A DNA stretch of 64,000 nucleotides from sequence record NC_054933.1; one strand, written 5' to 3'. This DNA comes from Escherichia phage teqhad. The notes under the pieces are model-generated. The model did not search any database. It had not been told where the DNA came from and saw only the letters and a list, made by a program, of their open reading frames with translations. Positions 30,096-40,690 of this stretch are shown here, one piece after another. Made by a program: the position numbers and the translations under genes. Each line of letters opens with the position of its first letter. The first letter of the stretch is position 1.

Positions 30096-30149
30096 TCCTC
30101 ATGTTATGCCAGTAAGACTACTATAACACAACACGAGGGACTTGTAAAC
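30096..30149 (-). repeat. 54-bp promoter/hairpin element, copy 1 (51/54 identical to 45910..45963)
   Basis: Minus strand reads GTTTAC-N18-TATAGT; outer inverted repeat cctcatgtt/aacacgagg; 3' arm contains the ribosome-binding site of the downstream ORF. Confidence 0.6.
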
Positions 30150-32206
30150 TACATTTTGAACTTTTTAGACATTCCGTTGATGTTAACCAAAGAAGCCAAG
30201 ATTTGAGAAACTTCGTTTTCCTCTTCTTTTGATTCTTCTACAAGGAATTGATTAAATCCAGCCATTGGACGAACTTCACCAGTTTCCATTAGATGGTCGC
30301 CATCATATACCGATTCCTCTAATTGTTCAGAAGGAGGAACGATTGTACCTTCTATTAGATACTTGTTATAAGCAGTTTCTTTCATAAAGTACGTGCTCAC
30401 TTTATTAATCTTCAGTAAAATTCCACGCGGTAGAATAACTTCAGCTTCTGATGGAAATCCTGATAAATGACCTGGAACGATAACTTTGATTCGCTCAGCT
30501 CCTTTAATTACCATACCCACGCTAGTTTCAGCATCTTCATTAGCATATGTAGAATGACTACCCATATGCATCAAATCTTCTGCATCAACGGAACCTTCTC
30601 CTTCGCCAGAAAATACTGCGCCGGAATCATCTAGAGCCATATAGTTTTTACCGTGCTCACCGAAAATATTTGGTTTAAGCGATGTGGATACGAAGTTCTT
30701 GAAATAGAACATTTTGTTTTCAATATTATGACGCAAAGTTTTAAAGGTAACTTCTTGTCCACGGTAAAGTGTAGTTCCTGGAGGAAGAACTGAACCTTTA
30801 GCGAATGCAGAATCAAGCGTCTCGATGTGTTTAATAGCTCGTTCCATATATTCTTCACGGGTAGAATCTGGTTTACCCAAAAGGAACGAGTTCATTTCAA
30901 CATATGAATCTGCACAATAATCTTCAATTACGTCAGATTCAGCCTGAGTTAATCCTTTTGGAGTTACTTCAGTACTTGCATATTCATATGCCTGAGCGGC
31001 AGATTCATTAATCAATTTATAAATGCCATTCATGACAAATTGAATAATAGCTGTCTTTTCATCTGGCGTAGCTTTAGAACCTTTAGCTAAATCATTGACA
31101 ATTTTCTTAATAACATCAAAACTATTAGAAATATTAATATCAGCAAGATCGCTTAAAATTTTATCAGTTTTATAATCAAAGAATTCTTTATTCTTTAAAT
31201 ATTCTTGAGAACCTTGATATGTTATATCGCTCTGCAGCTTGATAGATGGATCGCGTAAACGTGCATGGGCCAATGCAATATGATTTCGGAAGTTTTCTAG
31301 TTCATAATCGTTAGATTTAAAACGAGAAGCACTTCTCATACCACCGATAGCTCCTTTGCTAAAGTTTGAACCAATCTGAATAACGCCAGAGTTCATCGGA
31401 CCTTCTGCTTTATATACCGGAACTTTAGATTCAAACTCTTGATATTTCTTAGCAGCGAAGCTATCACCCTGAAGTGAAGCATCAACAGTAGAATATTGAG
31501 CTTGTGCTGCTAATCGACGACTAATTTTAGTTTTCTGAATAACAGCTTGATCCGTGCGCTTATCATTTTCTAAAGCAATAGAAGCAGCAACAGCGACAGC
31601 TTTAGGAACAGCATTACCTGTTTTAACGTCTACATAAACATCACCAACCTTTGATTCAACTTTTGTGAATAACTCAGTTGAAATAGGAGGTACACCTGGA
31701 ATGTCTTCTAAATTGGCATTTTTACGGTAAACCATAATATATGCATATTTCTTATCATAGTCCCAGATTTCCTTTAAAAGAACATATCGACCTGCTCCTT
31801 TAGTACGTACTAAACGGTCAGCAATAACTTGCATTTGACGAGCTGCGCCATTTGTTTTACTTTTTAGTACGCGGAATAGGCATGCGTCGATTTTATACTG
31901 TTTCATTGTTTGAAGAGCAGTATCAAAAACAGCATTAATGACGCCAATTGGATTTCCACCCAAGTTTCTAAGCTTGACTAACGATAATTTCTCGTTGACA
32001 CCTATCATTACGATATGCATCATTTTGTCGCCTGGCTTAACGTTTTTATTTGTATCACCGCCAGAGGTGTATGTACAAAATCTAAATCCAGGAAGAACGC
32101 TTTCTTCACCGGCTTGAATAGCAAAAATTTGTGGTATTTTATGCTTAGGATTTAAGTTAACAACCGGCGCCGAAGCGCCGTCAAATAATTCTGTAATAAG
32201 TTCCAT
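30149..32206 (-). CDS. Alt-family NAD-protein ADP-ribosyltransferase paralog
   Basis: 685 aa; N-terminus MELITELFD shared with the neighbouring paralog; R/STS/ExE motifs present (LYRGQ, FVSTSLKP, SEAEVILPRG). Confidence 0.85.
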   Translation of the reverse strand: MELITELFDGASAPVVNLNPKHKIPQIFAIQAGEESVLPGFRFCTYTSGGDTNKNVKPGDKMMHIVMIGVNEKLSLVKLRNLGGNPIGVINAVFDTALQTMKQYKIDACLFRVLKSKTNGAARQMQVIADRLVRTKGAGRYVLLKEIWDYDKKYAYIMVYRKNANLEDIPGVPPISTELFTKVESKVGDVYVDVKTGNAVPKAVAVAASIALENDKRTDQAVIQKTKISRRLAAQAQYSTVDASLQGDSFAAKKYQEFESKVPVYKAEGPMNSGVIQIGSNFSKGAIGGMRSASRFKSNDYELENFRNHIALAHARLRDPSIKLQSDITYQGSQEYLKNKEFFDYKTDKILSDLADINISNSFDVIKKIVNDLAKGSKATPDEKTAIIQFVMNGIYKLINESAAQAYEYASTEVTPKGLTQAESDVIEDYCADSYVEMNSFLLGKPDSTREEYMERAIKHIETLDSAFAKGSVLPPGTTLYRGQEVTFKTLRHNIENKMFYFKNFVSTSLKPNIFGEHGKNYMALDDSGAVFSGEGEGSVDAEDLMHMGSHSTYANEDAETSVGMVIKGAERIKVIVPGHLSGFPSEAEVILPRGILLKINKVSTYFMKETAYNKYLIEGTIVPPSEQLEESVYDGDHLMETGEVRPMAGFNQFLVEESKEEENEVSQILASLVNINGMSKKFKM

Positions 32207-32209
32207 GAT

Positions 32210-34303
32210 TTATCCTTGAACGAACTTGTAAGGCATGTTTGTAATATCTATGCAAGACGCAATAATTCCAAGAGATGATTCTACTTTCTGTTTAACGTTT
32301 GATGAAACAAATGATGCAAAGTCAACTCTGTCTTCTATTTCAATATCACCTGTCATTGCAACCAATTCACCAGTTTCCATTAAATGGTCTCCATCATAGA
32401 TTACCGATTCGGTGAGCTCTTCCGTGGTCATAACTTCAGCTTGAATGAGTTTTGTATTATTAGATGTTGTTCCGTCATTATTAGAAGCATCAGTTATTTT
32501 ATTAACTTTGACCATCAATCCACGCGGTAGAATAACTTCAGCTTCTGTTGCTATTCCGAGACTTCCTGGATATACAACATTAACTTTATGAGCTCCATCA
32601 ATTGCCCATCCTATTTGAACTTTAACGTATTCAGGATTTTCTTTATACGCTCTTATTTCGTTTGGATTAATAGTTATTCCTTCTTCATTTTTATCAACTG
32701 TTAATTCATTGCGAGCTTCTGGTTCTAAAAGACCAATACCAGCATGTGTAATTCCAAAACGTCCAAAAATGATAGGAGTTAAAGAAGTAGATACAAAATT
32801 TCTGAAGTAGAACACTTTATTTTTAACTAGTGCTTCGTATATAGGAGCAGTCATACTTTGAGCACGATAAACTGTAATGCCTTCTGGTATACGGTCACCA
32901 TTTTCAAAAGCTGAATCTAAGTTATTTATAGCAGATTCAATTTCTTTTTCACTCATTACATCATATCGTTCTGGATTGTAACGACCTAAAAGAAGATTAT
33001 TAATGTCAGTATATCCTGAACCACAATATTCTCTAATACCTCTCTTTTGTGATGGAGTATATTTAGAACCATCACGAGCGATTGTAATATCAATCATAGG
33101 ACCAGCTCCTACGCCAGAGAAACTGTATATCATTCGTTTGAGGAATTTAGTTTTTGCTGCGTTCCAGGAATTTTTAGTTATTTCTTCCCAGACTTCATCT
33201 GGTTGTCCTTTACGATTTTTATTATGATTAGCAAGCCATTTATCTTTATAATCTTCAAAGAATTGATTTACAGCTGCTGCGTATTTCTCTAAACATTTTA
33301 TTGAAGTAGTTGGTTCATTTTTAATTGCATTAAAAATTACTTCTTTAATTTTTTCTGAAACTTCACCGACTTGACTCATTGGAAAGAATTTATAATCATA
33401 GTGAAGTTCATCTGCCGTTCCTTCAGCAATAATTTTTGCTGCCTTTGTTTTAGAAGCTAATGAATTAATTCCAATTTTCATTTCTTCTGCTTCGGGAATT
33501 AAAGGTGCAGTAGCTGGTTTATTAAAATTAGCTGCTGTAGATTCATACTTCTGGAATAATTCACTTTCAAATCTAGAAGATTCCAATGACTGGCTTTGTG
33601 CAATTGCTCTACGGGAAATTTTAACTTTAACGATTACAGCTTGGTCAGAACGTTTATCATTTTCTTGTGCAATAGATGCTGCAATTGCCTCATTTTTGGT
33701 TACTTGGGCTCCAGTATCTTTATTGATATAAACATCACCGACTTTCGATTCAACTTTAGTAAAGAGCTCGGTACTAATTTCCGGAACTCCTGGAATGTCT
33801 TCTAGTGATACATTTTTACGATGTATAAGAATATATGCATACTTTTTATCGTAATCCCAGAGTTCCTTAAGAAGGACGTATCTGCCACCTGAACGACTAC
33901 GGATAAGTCTATCAGCAATAACTTGAATTTGTCGAGCTTGACCAGCGGTTTTAGACTTAAGAATACGAAGCATACAAGCATCAATTTTATATTGACGCAT
34001 TGTTTGCATTGCAACAGTAAAAACTGAATTGATATAATTAATTGGGCTTGGACCAAGACCTTTTAATTTAGCAATTGAACCTTTAGCAGTTAATGTAAAA
34101 GGAACGATATGCATCATTTTATCGCCCATTTTTAAATCGCGATTAGTATCACCTCCAGATGTATACGTGCATAAACGAAAGCCTGGTTGTTCAATTGCAT
34201 CATCAACATGAACTGAAAAAATTTGTGGTATTTTCTTCTTTGGATTTAAGTTTGTAATCGGAAGAGTAGTATCTTCGTCAAATAATTCTGTAATGAGTTC
34301 CAT
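32210..34303 (-). CDS. alt: Alt ADP-ribosyltransferase (probable canonical alt; head-packaged)
   Basis: 697 aa from the second ATG (GAGG at 5 nt; track ORF starts at 34306); motifs VYRAQ, FVSTSLTP, TEAEVILPRG; own late promoter upstream. Confidence 0.8.
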   Translation of the reverse strand: MELITELFDEDTTLPITNLNPKKKIPQIFSVHVDDAIEQPGFRLCTYTSGGDTNRDLKMGDKMMHIVPFTLTAKGSIAKLKGLGPSPINYINSVFTVAMQTMRQYKIDACMLRILKSKTAGQARQIQVIADRLIRSRSGGRYVLLKELWDYDKKYAYILIHRKNVSLEDIPGVPEISTELFTKVESKVGDVYINKDTGAQVTKNEAIAASIAQENDKRSDQAVIVKVKISRRAIAQSQSLESSRFESELFQKYESTAANFNKPATAPLIPEAEEMKIGINSLASKTKAAKIIAEGTADELHYDYKFFPMSQVGEVSEKIKEVIFNAIKNEPTTSIKCLEKYAAAVNQFFEDYKDKWLANHNKNRKGQPDEVWEEITKNSWNAAKTKFLKRMIYSFSGVGAGPMIDITIARDGSKYTPSQKRGIREYCGSGYTDINNLLLGRYNPERYDVMSEKEIESAINNLDSAFENGDRIPEGITVYRAQSMTAPIYEALVKNKVFYFRNFVSTSLTPIIFGRFGITHAGIGLLEPEARNELTVDKNEEGITINPNEIRAYKENPEYVKVQIGWAIDGAHKVNVVYPGSLGIATEAEVILPRGLMVKVNKITDASNNDGTTSNNTKLIQAEVMTTEELTESVIYDGDHLMETGELVAMTGDIEIEDRVDFASFVSSNVKQKVESSLGIIASCIDITNMPYKFVQG

Positions 34304-34326
34304 CATATCCTCTCTAGTGTTTATTC

Positions 34327-34334
34327 TATTTATA
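34327..34334 (-). promoter_or_regulatory. Late promoter (TATAAATA on minus strand) upstream of alt
   Basis: Plus-strand TATTTATA about 20 nt upstream of the alt ATG. Confidence 0.5.
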
Positions 34335-34339
34335 AAATT

Positions 34340-34357
34340 AAAGGCCCGAAGGCCTTT
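34340..34357. terminator. Palindromic hairpin AAAGGCC-CGAA-GGCCTTT
   Basis: Perfect inverted repeat with GNRA-like loop flanked by A/T runs on both strands, between the 62-aa ORF and alt. Confidence 0.45.
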
Positions 34358-34544
34358 AATAATCTATTGGTAAGAGAGTACGATATATTTCAAACTTTGG
34401 ACCTTTTTCATAGGCATCAAATGTTTCTGTGAATTTATTATAAGCATATGCATCTATAAATTCAATCATGATTTGTGATACAGAAGTAGAAACATCTCCA
34501 CCTTCTTTTTGAGCCACGACAATTGTTTCTAAGTAAGCTTTCAT
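34356..34544 (-). CDS. Hypothetical small protein downstream of DNA ligase
   Basis: 62 aa ORF; start overlaps ligase stop (ATGA). Confidence 0.55.
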   Translation of the reverse strand: MKAYLETIVVAQKEGGDVSTSVSQIMIEFIDAYAYNKFTETFDAYEKGPKFEIYRTLLPIDY

Positions 34545-36004
34545 AAACCAGTTACCTCATGAAAATTACCAAATACATCCTCGAATGTATTAGCTTTAGT
34601 TTTATCTTCACGCAAACGAATCGCAATCGGAAGAAATAATTTAACGTAATCAGTGCGGCCATCAGATTTTAACCAACCGTTGCATTCGCACTCTAGAATT
34701 TTTCCAATATAATAATTTTGGTTTTCCATAATGCGAGTACGGTCAAGTTCATGTGATTTTACGCCGGCTTTATCTTTTAAGCCTGAACCAGCATTTACTT
34801 TAATTTTTCCACACTCTGACTCAAGAATAAATCCACCCGCTTTAGTAGGGTCTTTACGGTGAGGATAAATTCCTACAATTTTTAAATCAACATCAATTAC
34901 TTCTTTAAATTTATAGAGATTTTTTGAACGAGCATTTTCCCATAATCCATCGATATTTTTGAGAATAATACCTTCAAGACCTTGATCAATATACTTTTTG
35001 TAAATTACCTTAGCTTCATCTAGGTTATTTACTACTTGGTTTTCAATTAAAATTACTTTATCATAGCCTGATGTCATTTGTTCTAGTTTAGAAAAACGTA
35101 CATCATATTTTAAACGAAATGCTGGAAGACCATATATTTCTACTAATGGAACATAATCCCAGACCTGAAACTTCATGCATTGTGCTTCTTTTTCAGAAAT
35201 GGTTCCCTTTAAAGATTTATTGGCGATGCCATTAGATGCAGTACGTGATTCAGCTACTTCGGCGAATTCTTTAGCTTTACTAATTTCAGGATAAGCATCA
35301 AAAAGAAAATCTAGGCCTTCTGGTTCCTTTTCAACTTGCTCATGGTATACCAATTCGCCATCAATTAACACACCTTCTGGATGAATCTGGCGGGCTTCAG
35401 CAGTCATTTTGATTAACTCTTCCTTAAGAAGATCTAATCCTAGATATTCATTGCCAGCTCGTGATAAAAGACGAACATCATCTAATTCATCACCTCTGAC
35501 TTCGGCAAAGCACCGAGCTCCATCAGCTTTTAACTGGGCAAAGGCTGGAAATTTGATATTCTTATTAATGCCTTTTTCATCATAAGAACTTGCAAGCATT
35601 TGAGGTTGTTCAGGAATTAAACCTGGCCAAACTTTGTTCGCAATAGATACTGATGCACCGCATTCAAGGTCTCGCATCATTACTCGACGTAATACTTCAA
35701 CATCATCTTTTTTACCGTCAGTAATATATCCAGTTAATTCCTCAATTGCCGCATTTCCAGTCAATTTCCGAGTAGCTAACGTGAATTCAATGAAGTCGAG
35801 CATATCGGTAAGAGTCAACATTCCAAAACTCTGGGTAGCAATACCCGGTTTAGGCCATTTCTTGATATAATACTGTAACCCACGAGAATAAGTCAGACGA
35901 TATACTCGTTTAAGCAATTCATTATCTTTATTCTTTTCAAGAATTGCTTGCTTCTGCTTAGTTGAACCAATAGATGCTATTTCGTTCAGAATTTTAAGAA
36001 TCAT
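34541..36004 (-). CDS. 30: ATP-dependent DNA ligase
   Basis: 487 aa; adenylation lysine motif (AQLKADGAR); essentially the T4 DNA ligase sequence. Confidence 0.98.
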   Translation of the reverse strand: MILKILNEIASIGSTKQKQAILEKNKDNELLKRVYRLTYSRGLQYYIKKWPKPGIATQSFGMLTLTDMLDFIEFTLATRKLTGNAAIEELTGYITDGKKDDVEVLRRVMMRDLECGASVSIANKVWPGLIPEQPQMLASSYDEKGINKNIKFPAFAQLKADGARCFAEVRGDELDDVRLLSRAGNEYLGLDLLKEELIKMTAEARQIHPEGVLIDGELVYHEQVEKEPEGLDFLFDAYPEISKAKEFAEVAESRTASNGIANKSLKGTISEKEAQCMKFQVWDYVPLVEIYGLPAFRLKYDVRFSKLEQMTSGYDKVILIENQVVNNLDEAKVIYKKYIDQGLEGIILKNIDGLWENARSKNLYKFKEVIDVDLKIVGIYPHRKDPTKAGGFILESECGKIKVNAGSGLKDKAGVKSHELDRTRIMENQNYYIGKILECECNGWLKSDGRTDYVKLFLPIAIRLREDKTKANTFEDVFGNFHEVTGL

Positions 36005-36270
36005 TGTTCATCCTTTAGAGTTTGGTTTACAGCTCTATTATAAATCAATTCATCATTAAGCTCAGTCAAAGACCTGTGGTACGTGGTTCTAACTTTATTT
36101 CCTTGCATCCAGTGCTTGACGTAAATGAAACCTTGCTCTACACATTTTTTAAAAATTCGTTCGTCTTTTTGAGCTCGGAATTCTGGATTGCATCTAAAAA
36201 ATTGATTTACGTGACCGTAATCACGTGTAGTATTACCTTCATTTTCATAAATAGTATGAACAACAAACAT
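36001..36270 (-). CDS. Hypothetical protein (T4 30.1 position)
   Basis: 89 aa, ATGA-coupled on both sides. Confidence 0.65.
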   Translation of the reverse strand: MFVVHTIYENEGNTTRDYGHVNQFFRCNPEFRAQKDERIFKKCVEQGFIYVKHWMQGNKVRTTYHRSLTELNDELIYNRAVNQTLKDEQ

Positions 36271-37118
36271 TAGAATGCTCCTTGGAAAATATTATCACCA
36301 CTAGTAATTCTATTAAAATACCCTGTGTCACCAGGCTTAATATAACTCCATGTATGGAATGGATGCATCTGATGTGAGTGCGTATAATATGGATGATATG
36401 GATTATAAGGATTAAATCCAGGAGTTCTCCAGGTAGTGTTCCAACGAAAAGAATCGTTTTTAATCATCTTTTCAATTACATCTTTTATAGCTTTTTCACT
36501 ATCAAAACTTTCTTTATTTTCCTTTGGTGGAAAAAGCTTATTCTCTACATCATTCCATGTATAAACTCGCTGAGCGGTTTTTGGAATACTGTCACGCTCC
36601 CCTCGAGCCATCCAATAAACAGGAACATTTAATATTTCACTTGCATGATCGCAGTGGTGAGCGAGATCGTCAATATAACAAATTACGTTATATTTCTCTT
36701 TTGCCTTTTTGAACAACTCTTCTTTTGAAGAATCATGACCACACATCATTACTTCTGAGAAGGCACCAGGAAAAAGAGCATTCAAATTAAATTGGCGATT
36801 CAGCAGAGCGTCAATAGAATCACCCAATGCTGTAACAGCTACAAAATTATAATCTTCTTTTAATTTGTTAATTACACACAGAGCATCTTTATATGGAGAC
36901 AAGTAACGAATAAAATCTGATCGATTGTATTTTTCAATTAACTTGACGCCAAGTTCTTCATCACAGTTAAAGAGTTTACCAGGAGAAATAAATTTCTCAT
37001 CCTGGATCATTTTTAAAATATGTTCTAACGGAAGATTATATTTCTGAGCAAAATAAGGAAGGCCTGATTGCCAGCTTAAACATACTCCATCAATATCAGT
37101 TAAAATAGTAGGCTTCAT
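36270..37118 (-). CDS. HAD-superfamily-like hydrolase (T4 30.2 position)
   Basis: 282 aa; N-terminal DIDGV (HAD motif I, DxDx[TV]) and YIDD motif; His/Tyr/Pro-rich C-terminus. Confidence 0.65.
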   Translation of the reverse strand: MKPTILTDIDGVCLSWQSGLPYFAQKYNLPLEHILKMIQDEKFISPGKLFNCDEELGVKLIEKYNRSDFIRYLSPYKDALCVINKLKEDYNFVAVTALGDSIDALLNRQFNLNALFPGAFSEVMMCGHDSSKEELFKKAKEKYNVICYIDDLAHHCDHASEILNVPVYWMARGERDSIPKTAQRVYTWNDVENKLFPPKENKESFDSEKAIKDVIEKMIKNDSFRWNTTWRTPGFNPYNPYHPYYTHSHQMHPFHTWSYIKPGDTGYFNRITSGDNIFQGAF

Positions 37119-37579
37119 AGAGAGTCTCTTAATAGGTTTAACACATCAATAAATTCAGCTTCGGTTAGTATTGTATCATCTTTTGTTAGACCACTAGCCA
37201 TGCTGTGCTTCAAAACTTTTCCTTTCGAGGCTTGTAATGCATCACGAAAGCCCTTGTTTTGGATTGCTGCTTCAAAATATGCATTTGTGTATAATTCTTT
37301 CCACGCCGGGGAGTATCTTGAAAACGGAACTCCAAGCCAAAAGAGGGTCCCACGGTCCTGAGCTCTTGCATAAGACCTTCCAGCTTGTTGGGCGGCAAGC
37401 CCGGATAACCCAAATATACGACGTTGTTGTTCAACATTTTTCACCTTGCACCCTTGGAGGAATCCTTCAAGACCTCCAAATTGAATACCATCCATAACGA
37501 AAGGCCATTGGGCGAAATTACTTAATGCGCATGATGGCCATCTAAAATTACTTCTAATCTCTAACTCAGACATTTTCAA
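37115..37579 (-). CDS. NADAR (YbiA/DUF1768)-like protein (T4 30.3 position)
   Basis: 154 aa; LSNFAQWPFVMDGIQF... resembles the NADAR signature (LSNFYP..F..DG..). Assignment from motif recall, not a search. Confidence 0.6.
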   Translation of the reverse strand: MKMSELEIRSNFRWPSCALSNFAQWPFVMDGIQFGGLEGFLQGCKVKNVEQQRRIFGLSGLAAQQAGRSYARAQDRGTLFWLGVPFSRYSPAWKELYTNAYFEAAIQNKGFRDALQASKGKVLKHSMASGLTKDDTILTEAEFIDVLNLLRDSL

Positions 37580-37772
37580 TGCTTATAATTTCAACATCAG
37601 CCCAATGACCATAGCAAGGAAGACGAAATTCAACTGGCCAGTTAGGGTCCTTTTCTAATATAATAGACTCAACTTTCGGTTCTTCGTGTTCATCAGTATA
37701 CGGATTTTTATCTGTTACTTTATATGTGACCTTAATGTACTGAATTCCAAAAATCTTATTAATTATATTCAT
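37566..37772 (-). CDS. Hypothetical small protein
   Basis: 68 aa ORF in the 30.x operon array. Confidence 0.55.
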   Translation of the reverse strand: MNIINKIFGIQYIKVTYKVTDKNPYTDEHEEPKVESIILEKDPNWPVEFRLPCYGHWADVEIISIENV

Positions 37773-37966
37773 ACTAATTCCTTTAATCCGTAAATAGGAG
37801 ATAATTCATCACCCATACGAAGGTCTTCATTTCCATCTACCCAGGAAACAATATAAGCCTCTTTTATTTGAATACCACTCCATTTAAATGGAGGTAGAAC
37901 CTTAGAAATTAATCCAGGTATACCAACTCCCTTTAATTCAACGGTTTGACCTAAAAAGAATTTCAT
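37769..37966 (-). CDS. Hypothetical small protein
   Basis: 65 aa ORF, ATGA-coupled. Confidence 0.55.
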   Translation of the reverse strand: MKFFLGQTVELKGVGIPGLISKVLPPFKWSGIQIKEAYIVSWVDGNEDLRMGDELSPIYGLKELV

Positions 37967-38253
37967 TAAAACCTCATCTGAAAACCGTGCGATTTAACGT
38001 TACCGCCGCCAATATCAGAAATGTTAATTTCGCGCGCAATTGAAGGGTCAATGTCAATTTCACGATTGAGTTTAGTGATAGCTAAAGTATCGCGCCCATT
38101 TATAGTACGGAACTCTAAAGGACAAACCACATCAACGTAGTTTTTAATCGATTCACTGGTAGGCTGCAAATGAGCAGGAAGGTCTTTAGGCGCCTTTGAA
38201 AAAACCACTTCACAGAAATTTTTGCGGGTATCAAAATAAGTAGTCATAAACAT
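37966..38253 (-). CDS. Hypothetical protein
   Basis: 95 aa ORF. Confidence 0.6.
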   Translation of the reverse strand: MFMTTYFDTRKNFCEVVFSKAPKDLPAHLQPTSESIKNYVDVVCPLEFRTINGRDTLAITKLNREIDIDPSIAREINISDIGGGNVKSHGFQMRF

Positions 38254-38294
38254 AGTATTTTCCTCAGTAAGGGGCCGAAGCCCCTCATTTTATT

Positions 38295-38660
38295 TTAAAT
38301 ATCAAATTCGTTAAGAACTACATCAAAGATTGCTTCAAGATGCTCAGGTTTAGCTCTGTTACTCAGAATATGACGAATCCAAGTTTTAACCAAAAGCTTG
38401 CGATTAGCACCATTCCAGCAAGGATGAGTCCCTAAATCGCGTTGACGAAAATCATCATCCAGAGCGATTTTAAAGTTGGAACCTTCCATTGTGATTGAAA
38501 CCGTGATGCCATTTTCAAATCGCATATAAACGTAATTAGGAGTCATATACTGTTCAATTTCGCATACTGATCCATTTTGATGTTTCCAAAGGCAAATAGT
38601 ATCAATAGAACCTGCAATACCATTAGAAACATATTTACGTTCAAAGTTGATGTAGTTCAT
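38295..38660 (-). CDS. Hypothetical protein
   Basis: 121 aa ORF. Confidence 0.65.
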   Translation of the reverse strand: MNYINFERKYVSNGIAGSIDTICLWKHQNGSVCEIEQYMTPNYVYMRFENGITVSITMEGSNFKIALDDDFRQRDLGTHPCWNGANRKLLVKTWIRHILSNRAKPEHLEAIFDVVLNEFDI

Positions 38661-38728
38661 TTTTGTTCTCCGAGATGTTTAATTGCGGTACAGGTATATA
38701 ATATCATATCCTGTACCAAAGTAAACAA

Positions 38729-39061
38729 TTATTTTACTACTTTCCAATGCTGCATGTCAAGTTTACCAACTTTTTTCATCTTCTCAATTAAGCGTTCGGC
38801 ACGTTGGCGAGCTGTAACATAATGCCATTCGCCTAATTCATTTTGTTCAATTTTTCCAACGATTACTGTATTCAATTCATAAATCCAACCAGTAAAGAAA
38901 TTATGAACTTGAATTGTAAAGGTGAAATCTGTTCCCATACCTTCTGTTGTTTCTACTTCAATAATATCACCTTCAACTGCCATTAAGAACCACATAGTTT
39001 CATCATATTTACCATTGAAGCATTTAGTTTTAACTGCAGCGTTCAGATTAATCGTTTTCAT
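38729..39061 (-). CDS. Hypothetical protein
   Basis: 110 aa ORF; early-promoter-like GTTTACA upstream on the minus strand. Confidence 0.65.
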   Translation of the reverse strand: MKTINLNAAVKTKCFNGKYDETMWFLMAVEGDIIEVETTEGMGTDFTFTIQVHNFFTGWIYELNTVIVGKIEQNELGEWHYVTARQRAERLIEKMKKVGKLDMQHWKVVK

Positions 39062-39148
39062 TTTATTCTCCTTTGTTTGTGTAAGATAATACTATCACAA
39101 AGGAACCATACTGTAAACAACTTTGTGCAATCTTTGGAAAATAAAAAA

Positions 39149-39166
39149 GGACTCCCGAAGGAGTCC
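39149..39166 (-). terminator. Intrinsic terminator after the 30.9-like ORF (minus strand)
   Basis: ggactcc-cgaa-ggagtcc; minus-strand RNA has a U-run (uuuuuuauuuu) after the stem. Confidence 0.55.
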
Positions 39167-39171
39167 TCAAC

Positions 39172-39348
39172 TTATGCTTTCTGCTTACCAAAACGAGAAG
39201 CATCATCTCGAAGAACCGCACGTGCTCGGCGCATGATCTTCTCAACAGTTTGATTGATACGAGAGTTCGACCCACGCTTGTAGCCAGCGCGTTTAGAATC
39301 ACCAACTTTCTTTTCAACTGCTTTCTTTGCTTTAACTTGTTTTGCCAT
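39172..39348 (-). CDS. Small highly basic protein (T4 30.9 position)
   Basis: Track ORF extends to 39390; internal ATG at 39348 gives MAKQVKAKKAVEKK... (58 aa), a more natural N-terminus. Start choice uncertain. Confidence 0.5.
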   Translation of the reverse strand: MAKQVKAKKAVEKKVGDSKRAGYKRGSNSRINQTVEKIMRRARAVLRDDASRFGKQKA

Positions 39349-39593
39349 TATAAATTCTCTTTTAAATGAAAATGCAGGACTTATTGGCATTGCCTGCGCA
39401 AGCCCTCAAGGGGAACATAGGTTTTTGGATATTTAACGACCAGGATAACCATAAACCCGTCATCATTCACATTCAAGAGGTACACCATAAAACTGCCGGG
39501 GTCTTAAAACTATAATGATTCGCAAATCATTAATCAGACAGTTCGATGGCTCCTCGATTTTAGCTCACACTAAGGCAGTGAATCTCCAATAAA

Positions 39594-39842
39594 TTACTTC
39601 AGTGTTACCACAAAGTGACGAACTGCTTTTCGTGCAGCAGAAGCCAGAGGCTTAGCATACTTAAGTTCATCTTTTTCCTGAAGCTCAGCGGCTAATGCAG
39701 TTTGAGCAGGATTTAGATGTTTGAAATAACGCAGGATTTCAAGAGCTTCGGCTTCAACATCAATAGATGCGCCATAGTTTTCGTGACCATTATTCCATGC
39801 GTTTCGTTGCAGTTCAAGAGCGTGTTGTAATTGTTTAATCAT
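39594..39842 (-). CDS. rIII: rIII lysis-inhibition accessory protein
   Basis: 82 aa; T4 rIII size and position between the 30.x block and gene 31. Confidence 0.85.
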   Translation of the reverse strand: MIKQLQHALELQRNAWNNGHENYGASIDVEAEALEILRYFKHLNPAQTALAAELQEKDELKYAKPLASAARKAVRHFVVTLK

Positions 39843-39989
39843 TTAAAAATTCTCGTTAGAGATTAAAACTCGGTAGTCACGTTCTTCTGAATTTCATCTT
39901 CTTTCGACAGATCTCTCAGTTGTAGACTACCACATAGAATTGTTCGGTTAACTTATTATTCCGACACCCAATTCATATTATTATTTATA

Positions 39990-40325
39990 TCACTTATAAA
40001 GACACGGAATAGCTTTATAATGACAGGTAACGAATTTTTGTTTAATTTCTTTTGGCTGCTTAAGACCCAGAGCTACAAAAGGATGCGGAACGTTTCGAAT
40101 TTGACCAACTGGAAGAGAAGTCAAATCACCAACTTCACAAAAACCTTCAGGAACATCAGGACCGACAGAGTGAATTACACACAGTTCAGGAACTTCACCT
40201 TGGACACGTTTACCGATAATAAGTCCTGATTCTGTAACTTCTTCATCACCGGCTTGTGCAGGTTCAGAAACTAAAATAACATATTCACCGACAGCACGAA
40301 TTGGTAGCTGTTGTACTTCAGACAT
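39990..40325 (-). CDS. 31: Co-chaperonin gp31 (GroES functional analogue)
   Basis: 111 aa; [21 protein letters not shown]... matches T4 gp31. Confidence 0.95.
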
Positions 40326-40381
40326 CGTTTTTCCTTTTTGTTAACAGATGAATTAATAATAACAAATAATTCTTAAAGCAT

Positions 40382-40690
40382 TTATTTACCAATAAATTGG
40401 AGTAAATGCTCAACTTTCATACCATTAACAGAAATCAATTTGTCAATAGAAAAACCTCGCCATGCACCAAGTTCAACATCAAATACTGGAATCATGTCAG
40501 TAGATTCTTTCCGAGTAGATTCAGTCAATTTGCCAGTTTGCATGGTTGGCATAAAGTCTGCATCACGAGTACCTTTCATAGTACGAATAGTACCATCAGA
40601 CTTTTCAAAAACTACGTTTGAAACACCCATGGACAATTTAGTTTTCAAAATTTCGCGAATTGCTACTTTCTGCTCAGTTGTCAGTTTCAT
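40382..40690 (-). CDS. Hypothetical protein (T4 31.1 position)
   Basis: 102 aa ORF. Confidence 0.65.
   Translation of the reverse strand: MKLTTEQKVAIREILKTKLSMGVSNVVFEKSDGTIRTMKGTRDADFMPTMQTGKLTESTRKESTDMIPVFDVELGAWRGFSIDKLISVNGMKVEHLLQFIGK

What the first reader, a model, noticed from the sequence alone, without database searches (positions are those of the whole stretch)
36270..37579. NADAR-like protein next to a HAD-like hydrolase in the post-ligase early operon
The 154-aa ORF (37115..37579) carries an LSNF..WPF..DG..F signature reminiscent of the NADAR/YbiA (DUF1768) family, whose members process ADP-ribose adducts and have been reported to reverse DarT-type guanine ADP-ribosylation of DNA. 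The adjacent 282-aa ORF has HAD motif I (DIDGV). Together with the Alt ADP-ribosyltransferases a few kb away, this makes the region an ADP-ribose writer/eraser neighbourhood. The NADAR could be a counter-defence against host DarT-like toxins or a regulator of phage-made ADP-ribosylation.
Basis: inference. Interest (0 to 1): 0.45.

Follow-up and report, generated by a model that had tools for sequence, protein, structure and literature searches.

The report
T4 AdfN anti-DarT enzyme plus phosphatase
The small gene is the already-characterised phage T4 enzyme AdfN (gp30.3), which strips ADP-ribose that the bacterial DarT1 toxin puts on phage DNA, and its neighbour is a conserved but uncharacterised HAD-type phosphatase (gp30.2) that published data show is not needed for that job.

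The parts
37115..37573 (-). adfN (gene 30.3) CDS, 152 aa: stand-alone NADAR-family DNA ADP-ribosylglycohydrolase
   Evidence: It is 151/152 identical to T4 gp30.3. Pfam PF08010 scores E=2e-70. The AF2 model has pLDDT 93. The top three Foldseek hits are 2B3W, 8BAU and 8BAT, all NADAR structures.
37466..37468 (-). codon GAA = Glu36, catalytic residue of AdfN
   Evidence: Read from the sequence. It is invariant in 60 homologues. The E36A mutant of T4 AdfN is defective in vivo and in vitro (PMC11825919).
37445..37447 (-). codon AAG = Lys43, catalytic/ADP-ribose-contacting residue
   Evidence: Read from the sequence. It is conserved in at least 90% of homologues. The K43A mutant of T4 AdfN is defective.
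37205..37207 (-). codon CAC = His123 in the last beta-strand, the residue that distinguishes phage (gp30.3-type) NADARs from YbiA (Glu) and DarT1-linked (Asp) NADARs
   Evidence: It is invariant in the alignment and lies in strand E120-123 of the model. Its role as the distinguishing residue is stated in PMC11125620 and PMC11543638.
37121..37162 (-). C-terminal helix (residues 138-151) of AdfN. It is intact here; the RB69 allele loses it by frameshift and is defective
   Evidence: DSSP assigns a helix at 138-151. The RB69 truncation and the engineered truncation are described.
36270..37118 (-). gene 30.2 CDS, 282 aa: HAD-superfamily phosphatase (core residues 1-195) plus a variable, disordered aromatic/Pro/His-rich tail
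37083..37097 (-). HAD motif I, DIDGV (residues 8-12). Asp8 is the nucleophile and Asp10 the general acid/base
   Evidence: Read from the sequence. The residues are invariant. The residue roles come from established HAD-superfamily enzymology, not from a test here.
37566..37772 (-). gene 30.4 (68 aa), immediately upstream. Its stop overlaps the adfN start by 8 nt (ATGTCTGA)
   Evidence: It is the only other significant gene in the public T4 DarTG1 transposon screen (log2FC -1.79, padj 0.014).
37210..37437 (-). 30.3' : 75-aa out-of-frame ORF inside adfN, annotated in T4
   Evidence: It is 96% identical to T4 30.3'. It has no known function.

Best explanation
The 152-aa gene is adfN (T4 gene 30.3), an orphan antitoxin-like enzyme of the NADAR superfamily. 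[quoted passage not shown] AdfN is made from the tightly packed 30.7-to-30 gene block. It hydrolyses the ribose-guanine N-glycosidic bond, releases ADP-ribose, restores the base, and so lets replication proceed. Catalysis uses Glu36 and Lys43, plus His123 in the last strand. The C-terminal helix is needed for full activity. The activity and the phenotype were shown for the T4 protein; they are inferred for this phage from 99.3% identity. The adjacent 282-aa gene is 30.2, a C1-capped HAD-superfamily phosphatase with a complete DxD / T / K / DD catalytic set. The fold and motifs are shown here. My inference is that it dephosphorylates a small phosphomonoester, most likely a (deoxy)nucleoside monophosphate. 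It works independently of AdfN. It sits beside adfN because both genes occupy the ligase-proximal accessory block of T-even genomes, not because they form a pathway.
For: Identity to T4: gp30.3 is 151/152 identical, gp30.2 is 93% identical and ligase is 99% identical, with the same gene order 30.7-30.1-30-alt.

NADAR membership:
- PF08010 scores E=2e-70.
- 23 of 60 family members also hit Pfam NADAR PF08719, best E=1.5e-7.
- The family profile hits E. coli YbiA 2B3W at E=0.005, aligning LSNF with FSNF and E36 with the YbiA Glu.
- The AF2 model has pLDDT 93 and pTM 0.88.
- Foldseek against the PDB returns YbiA (E=4e-5, TM 0.68), PnNADAR 8BAU and G. lovleyi NADAR 8BAT as the only hits with probability above 0.1.
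- E36 and H123 are invariant, and K43 is conserved in at least 90% of homologues.

Function of AdfN, from the literature:
- T2 and T4 adfN deletions lose about 4 logs on DarTG1.
- Ectopic AdfN rescues RB69.
- The E36A and K43A mutants are defective.
- Purified AdfN removes ADP-ribose from DarT1-modified DNA (PMC11257639 and PMC11825919).
- Guanine-ADPr hydrolysis was shown independently in vitro (PMC11125620).
- The T4 transposon screen gives 30.3 log2FC -7.25 on DarTG1.

Independence of the two genes: 30.2 has log2FC -0.12 (p=0.61) on DarTG1. A Karamvirus keeps 30.2 next to ligase and alt but has its NADAR 58 kb away among tRNA genes. Three non-Straboviridae NADAR loci have no gp30.2-like ORF within 6 kb.
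Confidence: 0.9

Rival explanations
1. The NADAR and the HAD phosphatase form a two-step pathway, or gp30.2 is the unidentified T-even-specific factor that AdfN needs. For example, the phosphatase might process the released ADP-ribose or a phosphorylated adduct.
For: The genes are adjacent and translationally coupled by an ATGA overlap. Both are widespread in Straboviridae, with near-identical taxon distributions. The authors of PMC11825919 suggest that AdfN may need an additional T-even protein.
Against: T4 insertions in 30.2 (71 sites) are neutral on DarTG1, log2FC -0.12, p=0.61. The genes are 58 kb apart in a Karamvirus. No gp30.2-like ORF lies near gp30.3-family NADARs in three other phage lineages. 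NADAR hydrolysis of the N-glycosidic bond needs no phosphatase step. Purified AdfN alone works in vitro.
Confidence: 0.04
2. AdfN is the eraser for phage-made ADP-ribosylation, that is, the Alt, ModA and ModB modifications of host proteins or RNA. This would make the region a writer/eraser module.
For: Two Alt paralogues lie 2.8-7.4 kb away on the same strand. [quoted passage not shown]
Against: All NADARs tested act on guanine-linked ADP-ribose, not thymidine-linked. No activity on Arg-linked protein ADP-ribose has been reported in the papers read. Insertions in 30.3 have no fitness effect on K-12 without DarTG1, in LB or M9. Insertions in alt are neutral on DarTG1. In the Karamvirus the NADAR is nowhere near alt.
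Confidence: 0.04
3. In addition to DNA repair, AdfN degrades soluble ADP-ribose-derived immune signals or toxins. This is the general role that Iyer et al. predicted for phage NADARs.
For: This rests on the contextual argument in PMC9503650. The family is far more widespread (1509 phage records, many hosts) than one would expect if DarTG1 were the only pressure.
Against: Nothing I read or computed gives direct evidence for it. The only phenotype found in genome-wide screens is against DarTG1. I did not examine all screen conditions.
Confidence: 0.08

Closest known systems
T4 AdfN (gp30.3), anti-DarT factor NADAR (Johannesman, Carlson & LeRoux, Nat Commun 2025; PMC11825919)
   Same: It is the orthologue: 151/152 identical, the same length, the same genomic slot between 30.4 and 30.2, the same catalytic residues, and an intact C-terminal helix.
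   Different: There is a single I125M substitution. Proteins identical to the window's occur in other sequenced Tequatroviruses. Nothing here suggests a functional difference.
DarG1, the NADAR antitoxin of DarTG1 (Geobacter lovleyi NADAR 8BAT; E. coli C7 NADAR; Schuller et al. 2023, PMC11543638)
   Same: It has the same fold and removes the same adduct, guanine-N2-ADP-ribose in ssDNA.
   Different: AdfN is an orphan with no DarT next to it. It has His instead of Asp in the last strand. It is smaller (152 aa against 219 aa). It cannot neutralise DarT1 in uninfected E. coli.
E. coli YbiA (2B3W), the founding NADAR/DUF1768 member
   Same: It is the best structural match (Foldseek E=4e-5, TM 0.68) and the only PDB sequence reached by the family profile (E=0.005).
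   Different: Identity is 18%. YbiA has Glu in the last strand, is described as an N-glycosidase of riboflavin intermediates, and sits in a LexA-controlled operon.
5'(3')-deoxyribonucleotidases cdN/mdN (NT5C family; 2JAO, 2I7D, 1MH9) and the S. epidermidis deoxyribonucleotidase-like protein 3BWV

Membership tests
NADAR superfamily, phage gp30.3/AdfN clade | [quoted passage not shown] | tested here: met
   The AF2 model has pLDDT 93 and pTM 0.88, with strands 3-6, 25-27/30-32, 76-79/82-85 and 120-123 and six helices. The top three Foldseek PDB hits are the three solved NADARs, and every other hit has probability 0.07 or less.
NADAR superfamily, phage gp30.3/AdfN clade | Sequence-profile match to the family models | tested here: met
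   PF08010 Phage_30_3 scores 235 bits against a cut-off of 36. PF08719 NADAR is not reached by the query itself at E<=1, but 23 of 60 homologues reach it, best E=1.5e-7. The family profile hits YbiA at E=0.005.
NADAR superfamily, phage gp30.3/AdfN clade | Catalytic Glu and Lys (E36, K43 in T4 numbering) and the clade-specific His in the last strand | tested here: met
   The codons GAA (37468-37466), AAG (37447-37445) and CAC (37207-37205) are present. E36 and H123 are invariant and K43 is conserved in at least 90% of 60 homologues. Their roles are described.
NADAR superfamily, phage gp30.3/AdfN clade | Full-length C-terminal helix (absent in the defective RB69 allele) | tested here: met
   The protein is 152 aa with a helix at 138-151. 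The RB69 frameshift is described.
NADAR superfamily, phage gp30.3/AdfN clade | Hydrolysis of guanine-linked ADP-ribose on DNA, and protection from DarTG1 | not testable with these tools
   This was shown for the T4 protein, which is 99.3% identical. It is inferred here.
DarTG1 toxin-antitoxin system | A DarT ADP-ribosyltransferase toxin gene adjacent to the NADAR gene | tested here: not met
   The neighbours are 30.4 and 30.2, and no DarT-like ORF is present. The gene is an orphan antitoxin homologue, not a TA system.
HAD (haloacid dehalogenase-like) superfamily phosphatases (gp30.2) | Four catalytic motifs: I DxD, II S/T, III K/R, IV DD/ED | tested here: met
   D8, D10, K132, D150 and D151 are invariant and T96 is conserved in at least 90% of 56 homologues. 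The DxD form of motif I marks phosphotransferases rather than dehalogenases (established HAD enzymology).
HAD (haloacid dehalogenase-like) superfamily phosphatases (gp30.2) | Rossmannoid HAD core with a cap inserted after motif I (C1) | tested here: met
HAD (haloacid dehalogenase-like) superfamily phosphatases (gp30.2) | Match to a curated HAD sequence model | tested here: not met
   No HAD family appears in Pfam at E<=1 or in NCBIfam at E<=1. There are only weak PHROG hits to polynucleotide kinase/phosphatase (E=0.0035) and phosphoheptose families.
NT5C 5'(3')-deoxyribonucleotidase subfamily (gp30.2) | Specific similarity to cdN/mdN beyond the generic HAD core | tested here: inconclusive

The most novel reading that the evidence does not exclude
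AdfN may need a helper encoded in the same translationally coupled gene block. The better candidate is not the HAD (gp30.2) but the 68-aa gp30.4 (37566..37772), whose stop overlaps the adfN start. 30.4 is the only other gene significantly depleted in the public T4 DarTG1 transposon screen (log2FC -1.79, padj 0.014), and the preprint's main text does not mention it. It is neutral in LB versus M9. Its homologues are confined to T-even-type coliphages. That restriction would fit the published, unexplained observation that AdfN works only during T-even infection. The duller and more likely reading is a polar or translational-coupling effect of insertions on adfN expression.
Probability: 0.1. Interest if true: 0.45.

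Novelty: already known. Interest (0 to 1): 0.12.

Why it matters
It matters little as a discovery. gp30.3 was listed as a phage NADAR in 2012-2023 bioinformatic work. It was shown active in vitro in 2024. It was named AdfN and shown to be the T-even anti-DarTG1 factor in 2024-2025, and this was re-confirmed by transposon sequencing in 2025. The value here is annotation: most of the GenBank records listed for this gene still call it 'hypothetical protein'. Two open questions remain. One is the substrate and role of gp30.2, a HAD phosphatase found in about 1400 sequenced phages with no phenotype so far. The other is why AdfN functions only in the T-even context.

Tried and rejected
(1) Direct sequence search of gp30.3 against the PDB found nothing meaningful (E=0.61 to an unrelated ATP pyrophosphatase). 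The profile search and the fold search were needed.

(2) I tested for a conserved partner gene next to gp30.3-family NADARs in three non-Straboviridae lineages. An HMM of gp30.2 found nothing within 6 kb, and the flanking ORFs of the three lineages share no similarity with each other or with gp30.4, gp30.5 or gp30.1. The module idea is rejected.

(3) I checked gp30.2 as AdfN's missing cofactor against the published transposon tables. It is neutral on DarTG1, in M9, and in the delta-rnlA comparison. This is rejected.

(4) Pfam and NCBIfam scans of gp30.2 gave only sub-threshold thiamine pyrophosphokinase noise, which I disregarded.

(5) The promoter and terminator scan of 34300..40500 gave no more sites than shuffled sequence (26 against 22.4 +/- 4.3). 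The transcription-unit statement therefore rests on T4 knowledge and on gene packing, not on this scan.

(6) A literature search for gp30.2 found no functional study.

Full report
**What the window is.** The region 36000..37800 is 97-98% identical at the DNA level to hundreds of Tequatrovirus (T4-like) genomes. Gene order matches T4 exactly. On the minus strand, in the direction of transcription, it runs 31, rIII, 30.9, 30.8, 30.7, 30.6, 30.5, 30.4, 30.3, 30.2, 30.1, 30 (DNA ligase, 99% identical to T4), alt.1, alt. The finding covers T4 genes 30.3 and 30.2.

**Observation check.**
- Both ORFs are present as described.
- The 154-aa reading begins at a TTG (37579). The ATG two codons downstream (37573) is the start annotated in T4, and it is the one that makes the published residue numbers fit. 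The CDS is therefore 37115..37573, 152 aa.
- The 282-aa ORF 36270..37118 starts MKPTILTDIDGV.
- The five genes 30.4, 30.3, 30.2, 30.1 and 30 are chained by overlapping stop and start codons: ATGTCTGA, ATGA, TAATG, ATGA.
- One correction concerns the title. These genes are transcribed towards lower coordinates, so 30.3 and 30.2 are upstream of ligase. 'Post-ligase' holds only in plus-strand coordinates.

**The 152-aa protein is AdfN.**
- It is 151/152 identical to T4 gp30.3, the only difference being I125M.
- Pfam places it in PF08010 (Phage_30_3) at E=2e-70. The query itself does not reach PF08719 (NADAR) at E<=1.
- The link to NADAR is nevertheless solid on three independent lines.
  - 23 of 60 family members hit PF08719, best E=1.5e-7.
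  - A profile of the family hits E. coli YbiA (2B3W) as the sole PDB sequence at E=0.005. This aligns LSNF with FSNF and Glu36 with the YbiA Glu.
  - An AlphaFold2 model built on the 60-sequence alignment (pLDDT 93, pTM 0.88) matches YbiA, the Phytophthora NADAR-ADP-ribose complex 8BAU and the Geobacter lovleyi DarG1-type NADAR 8BAT. These are the only hits with Foldseek probability above 0.1.
- Glu36 and His123 are invariant, and Lys43 is conserved in at least 90% of sequences. His123 lies in the last strand, the position that separates phage NADARs (His) from YbiA (Glu) and DarT1-linked NADARs (Asp).
- The C-terminal helix (138-151) is present. The natural RB69 frameshift removes this helix.

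**What AdfN does, from the literature.**
- Schuller et al. 2023 showed that DarT1 ADP-ribosylates the amino group of guanine in ssDNA and that NADARs reverse this. They noted the phage clade with His (PMC11543638).
- A 2024 study showed that the coliphage gp30.3 protein hydrolyses guanine-ADP-ribose but not thymidine-ADP-ribose in vitro. It cannot protect uninfected E. coli from DarT1 (PMC11125620).
- Johannesman, Carlson and LeRoux mapped DarTG1 resistance of T2 and T4 to gene 30.3 by phage crosses and renamed it adfN.
  - Deletions cost about 4 logs on DarTG1.
  - Ectopic AdfN rescues RB69.
  - E36A, K43A and the RB69-like truncation are impaired.
  - The purified enzyme removes ADP-ribose from DarT1-modified DNA.
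  - AdfN does not counter DarTG2.
  - It works fully only in T-even infections. This is independent of DNA modification (T4-GT7), so an unidentified T-even factor may be required (PMC11257639, PMC11825919).
- A 2025 transposon-sequencing preprint re-confirmed the result. In its DarTG1 table, 30.3 has log2FC -7.25 with adjusted p of 0 (10.1101/2025.11.20.689424).

**The 282-aa protein is gp30.2, a HAD phosphatase.**
- It is 93% identical to T4 gp30.2, with the differences concentrated in the C-terminal tail.
- Curated sequence models do not recognise it. The 56-sequence alignment, however, shows the complete HAD catalytic set: D8-x-D10 (motif I), T96 (II), K132 (III) and D150-D151 (IV). Five of these residues are invariant and T96 is near-invariant.
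- The AF2 model is confident for residues 1-195 and disordered from about 229/245 onward.
- Foldseek gives 100 PDB hits at E<=1e-3, all of those listed being HAD-fold proteins, led by mouse cytosolic 5'(3')-deoxyribonucleotidase 2JAO at E=2e-8.
- The family profile's only PDB hit below E=1 is again 2JAO (E=0.034). There the invariant W16 aligns with a Phe of cdN.
- I conclude that HAD-superfamily phosphatase is shown. A nucleoside-monophosphate substrate is the best guess, but it is weak.
- About half of the homologues are 200-220 aa and lack the aromatic/Pro/His-rich tail.
- I found no functional study of gp30.2.
- In T4 it is non-essential, with 72 of 72 sites hit, and neutral in LB versus M9.

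**Is the neighbourhood a functional module?** I tested this in three ways.
- Genetics. In the T4 DarTG1 screen, 30.2 (log2FC -0.12, p=0.61), alt (-0.01) and adfA/61.2 (-0.34, not significant) are neutral. Only 30.3 and 30.4 are significant.
- Synteny within Straboviridae. gp30.3 and gp30.2 homologues occur in 1509 and 1437 phage records, with near-identical host distributions. They are adjacent in Tequatrovirus, in phage p000v, and in an Acinetobacter phage. In the Karamvirus vB_VIPECLOM01, however, 30.2 stays with ligase and alt while the NADAR sits 58 kb away among tRNA genes.
- Outside Straboviridae. Three unrelated metagenomic phage lineages carry gp30.3-family NADARs but have no gp30.2-like ORF within 6 kb. 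They also share no flanking gene with each other.

The HAD therefore travels with ligase, and the NADAR is a free-standing accessory gene. Their adjacency in T-evens is positional. The Alt link is no better supported. The window does carry two intact Alt paralogues. However, the NADARs tested acted on guanine-linked ADP-ribose and not on thymidine-linked. In addition, adfN insertions have no phenotype without DarTG1.

**A residual lead.** Gene 30.4 (68 aa) overlaps the adfN start by 8 nt. It is the second of only two significant genes in the DarTG1 screen (log2FC -1.79, padj 0.014). It is neutral in LB versus M9 (-0.05), and the preprint's main text does not mention it. Its homologues are limited to 718 T-even-type coliphage records. 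A polar or coupling effect on adfN is the likeliest cause. Because AdfN is reported to need the T-even context, a helper role is not excluded.

**Verdict.** adfN and its mechanism are published, and gp30.2 is an ordinary-looking HAD phosphatase with no demonstrated link to ADP-ribose biology. Interest is low.

Noticed in passing
window 30149..32206 (-) and 32210..34306 (-): There are two tandem full-length Alt-type ADP-ribosyltransferase genes. The 698-aa one is the T4 alt orthologue (71% identity). The 685-aa one is only 41% identical to T4 Alt, but its first 116 residues are 95-96% identical to T4 Alt.-1 plus Alt.-2. T4 therefore carries the decayed remnant of a second Alt gene that is intact in this phage.
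   Followed up: partly
window 37566..37772 (-), gene 30.4: This 68-aa ORF has a stop that overlaps the adfN start (ATGTCTGA). In the public T4 transposon screen it is the only gene besides adfN that is significantly depleted on DarTG1 (log2FC -1.79, padj 0.014). The preprint's main text does not mention it. Homologues are restricted to 718 T-even-type coliphage records. It could be a polar effect or an AdfN helper.
   Followed up: partly
window 37210..37437 (-): A 75-aa ORF lies in a different frame inside adfN. It is 96% identical to the T4-annotated 30.3' ('internal translation in a different reading frame'). Whether it is expressed, or conserved beyond what adfN conservation forces, was not tested.
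   Followed up: no
window 36270..36533 (-), residues ~196-282 of gp30.2: The C-terminal extension is variable and rich in aromatic, Pro, His and Asn residues. It has one predicted helix (207-220) and is then disordered (pLDDT below 50). About half of the homologues lack it and are 200-220 aa long. It might be a protein-interaction tail.
   Followed up: no
window 38731..38760 (-) and 39147..39168 (-): A near-consensus sigma-70-like promoter (TTGACA-18-TAAAAT, 11/12) lies just upstream of 30.7. A GC-rich hairpin followed by a T-run lies between 30.9 and 30.8. The scan as a whole was not above chance, so these are only candidates for the boundaries of the adfN transcription unit.
   Followed up: no
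L013 (Enterobacter phage vB_VIPECLOM01, OQ721912.1 70338-76775): In this Karamvirus the gp30.3-family NADAR gene is embedded in the tRNA gene cluster, with tRNA genes on both sides. It is 58 kb from the 30.2-ligase-alt locus, which shows that the NADAR gene has moved within Tevenvirinae.
   Followed up: partly
L002-L005 (ENA metagenome contigs, up to 308 kb): A gp30.3-family NADAR in a large (jumbo-size) phage-like contig lies about 2.6 kb from a Nudix hydrolase gene and a Thg1-like gene on the opposite strand. This could be ADP-ribose or RNA-repair context, and it was not examined.
   Followed up: no
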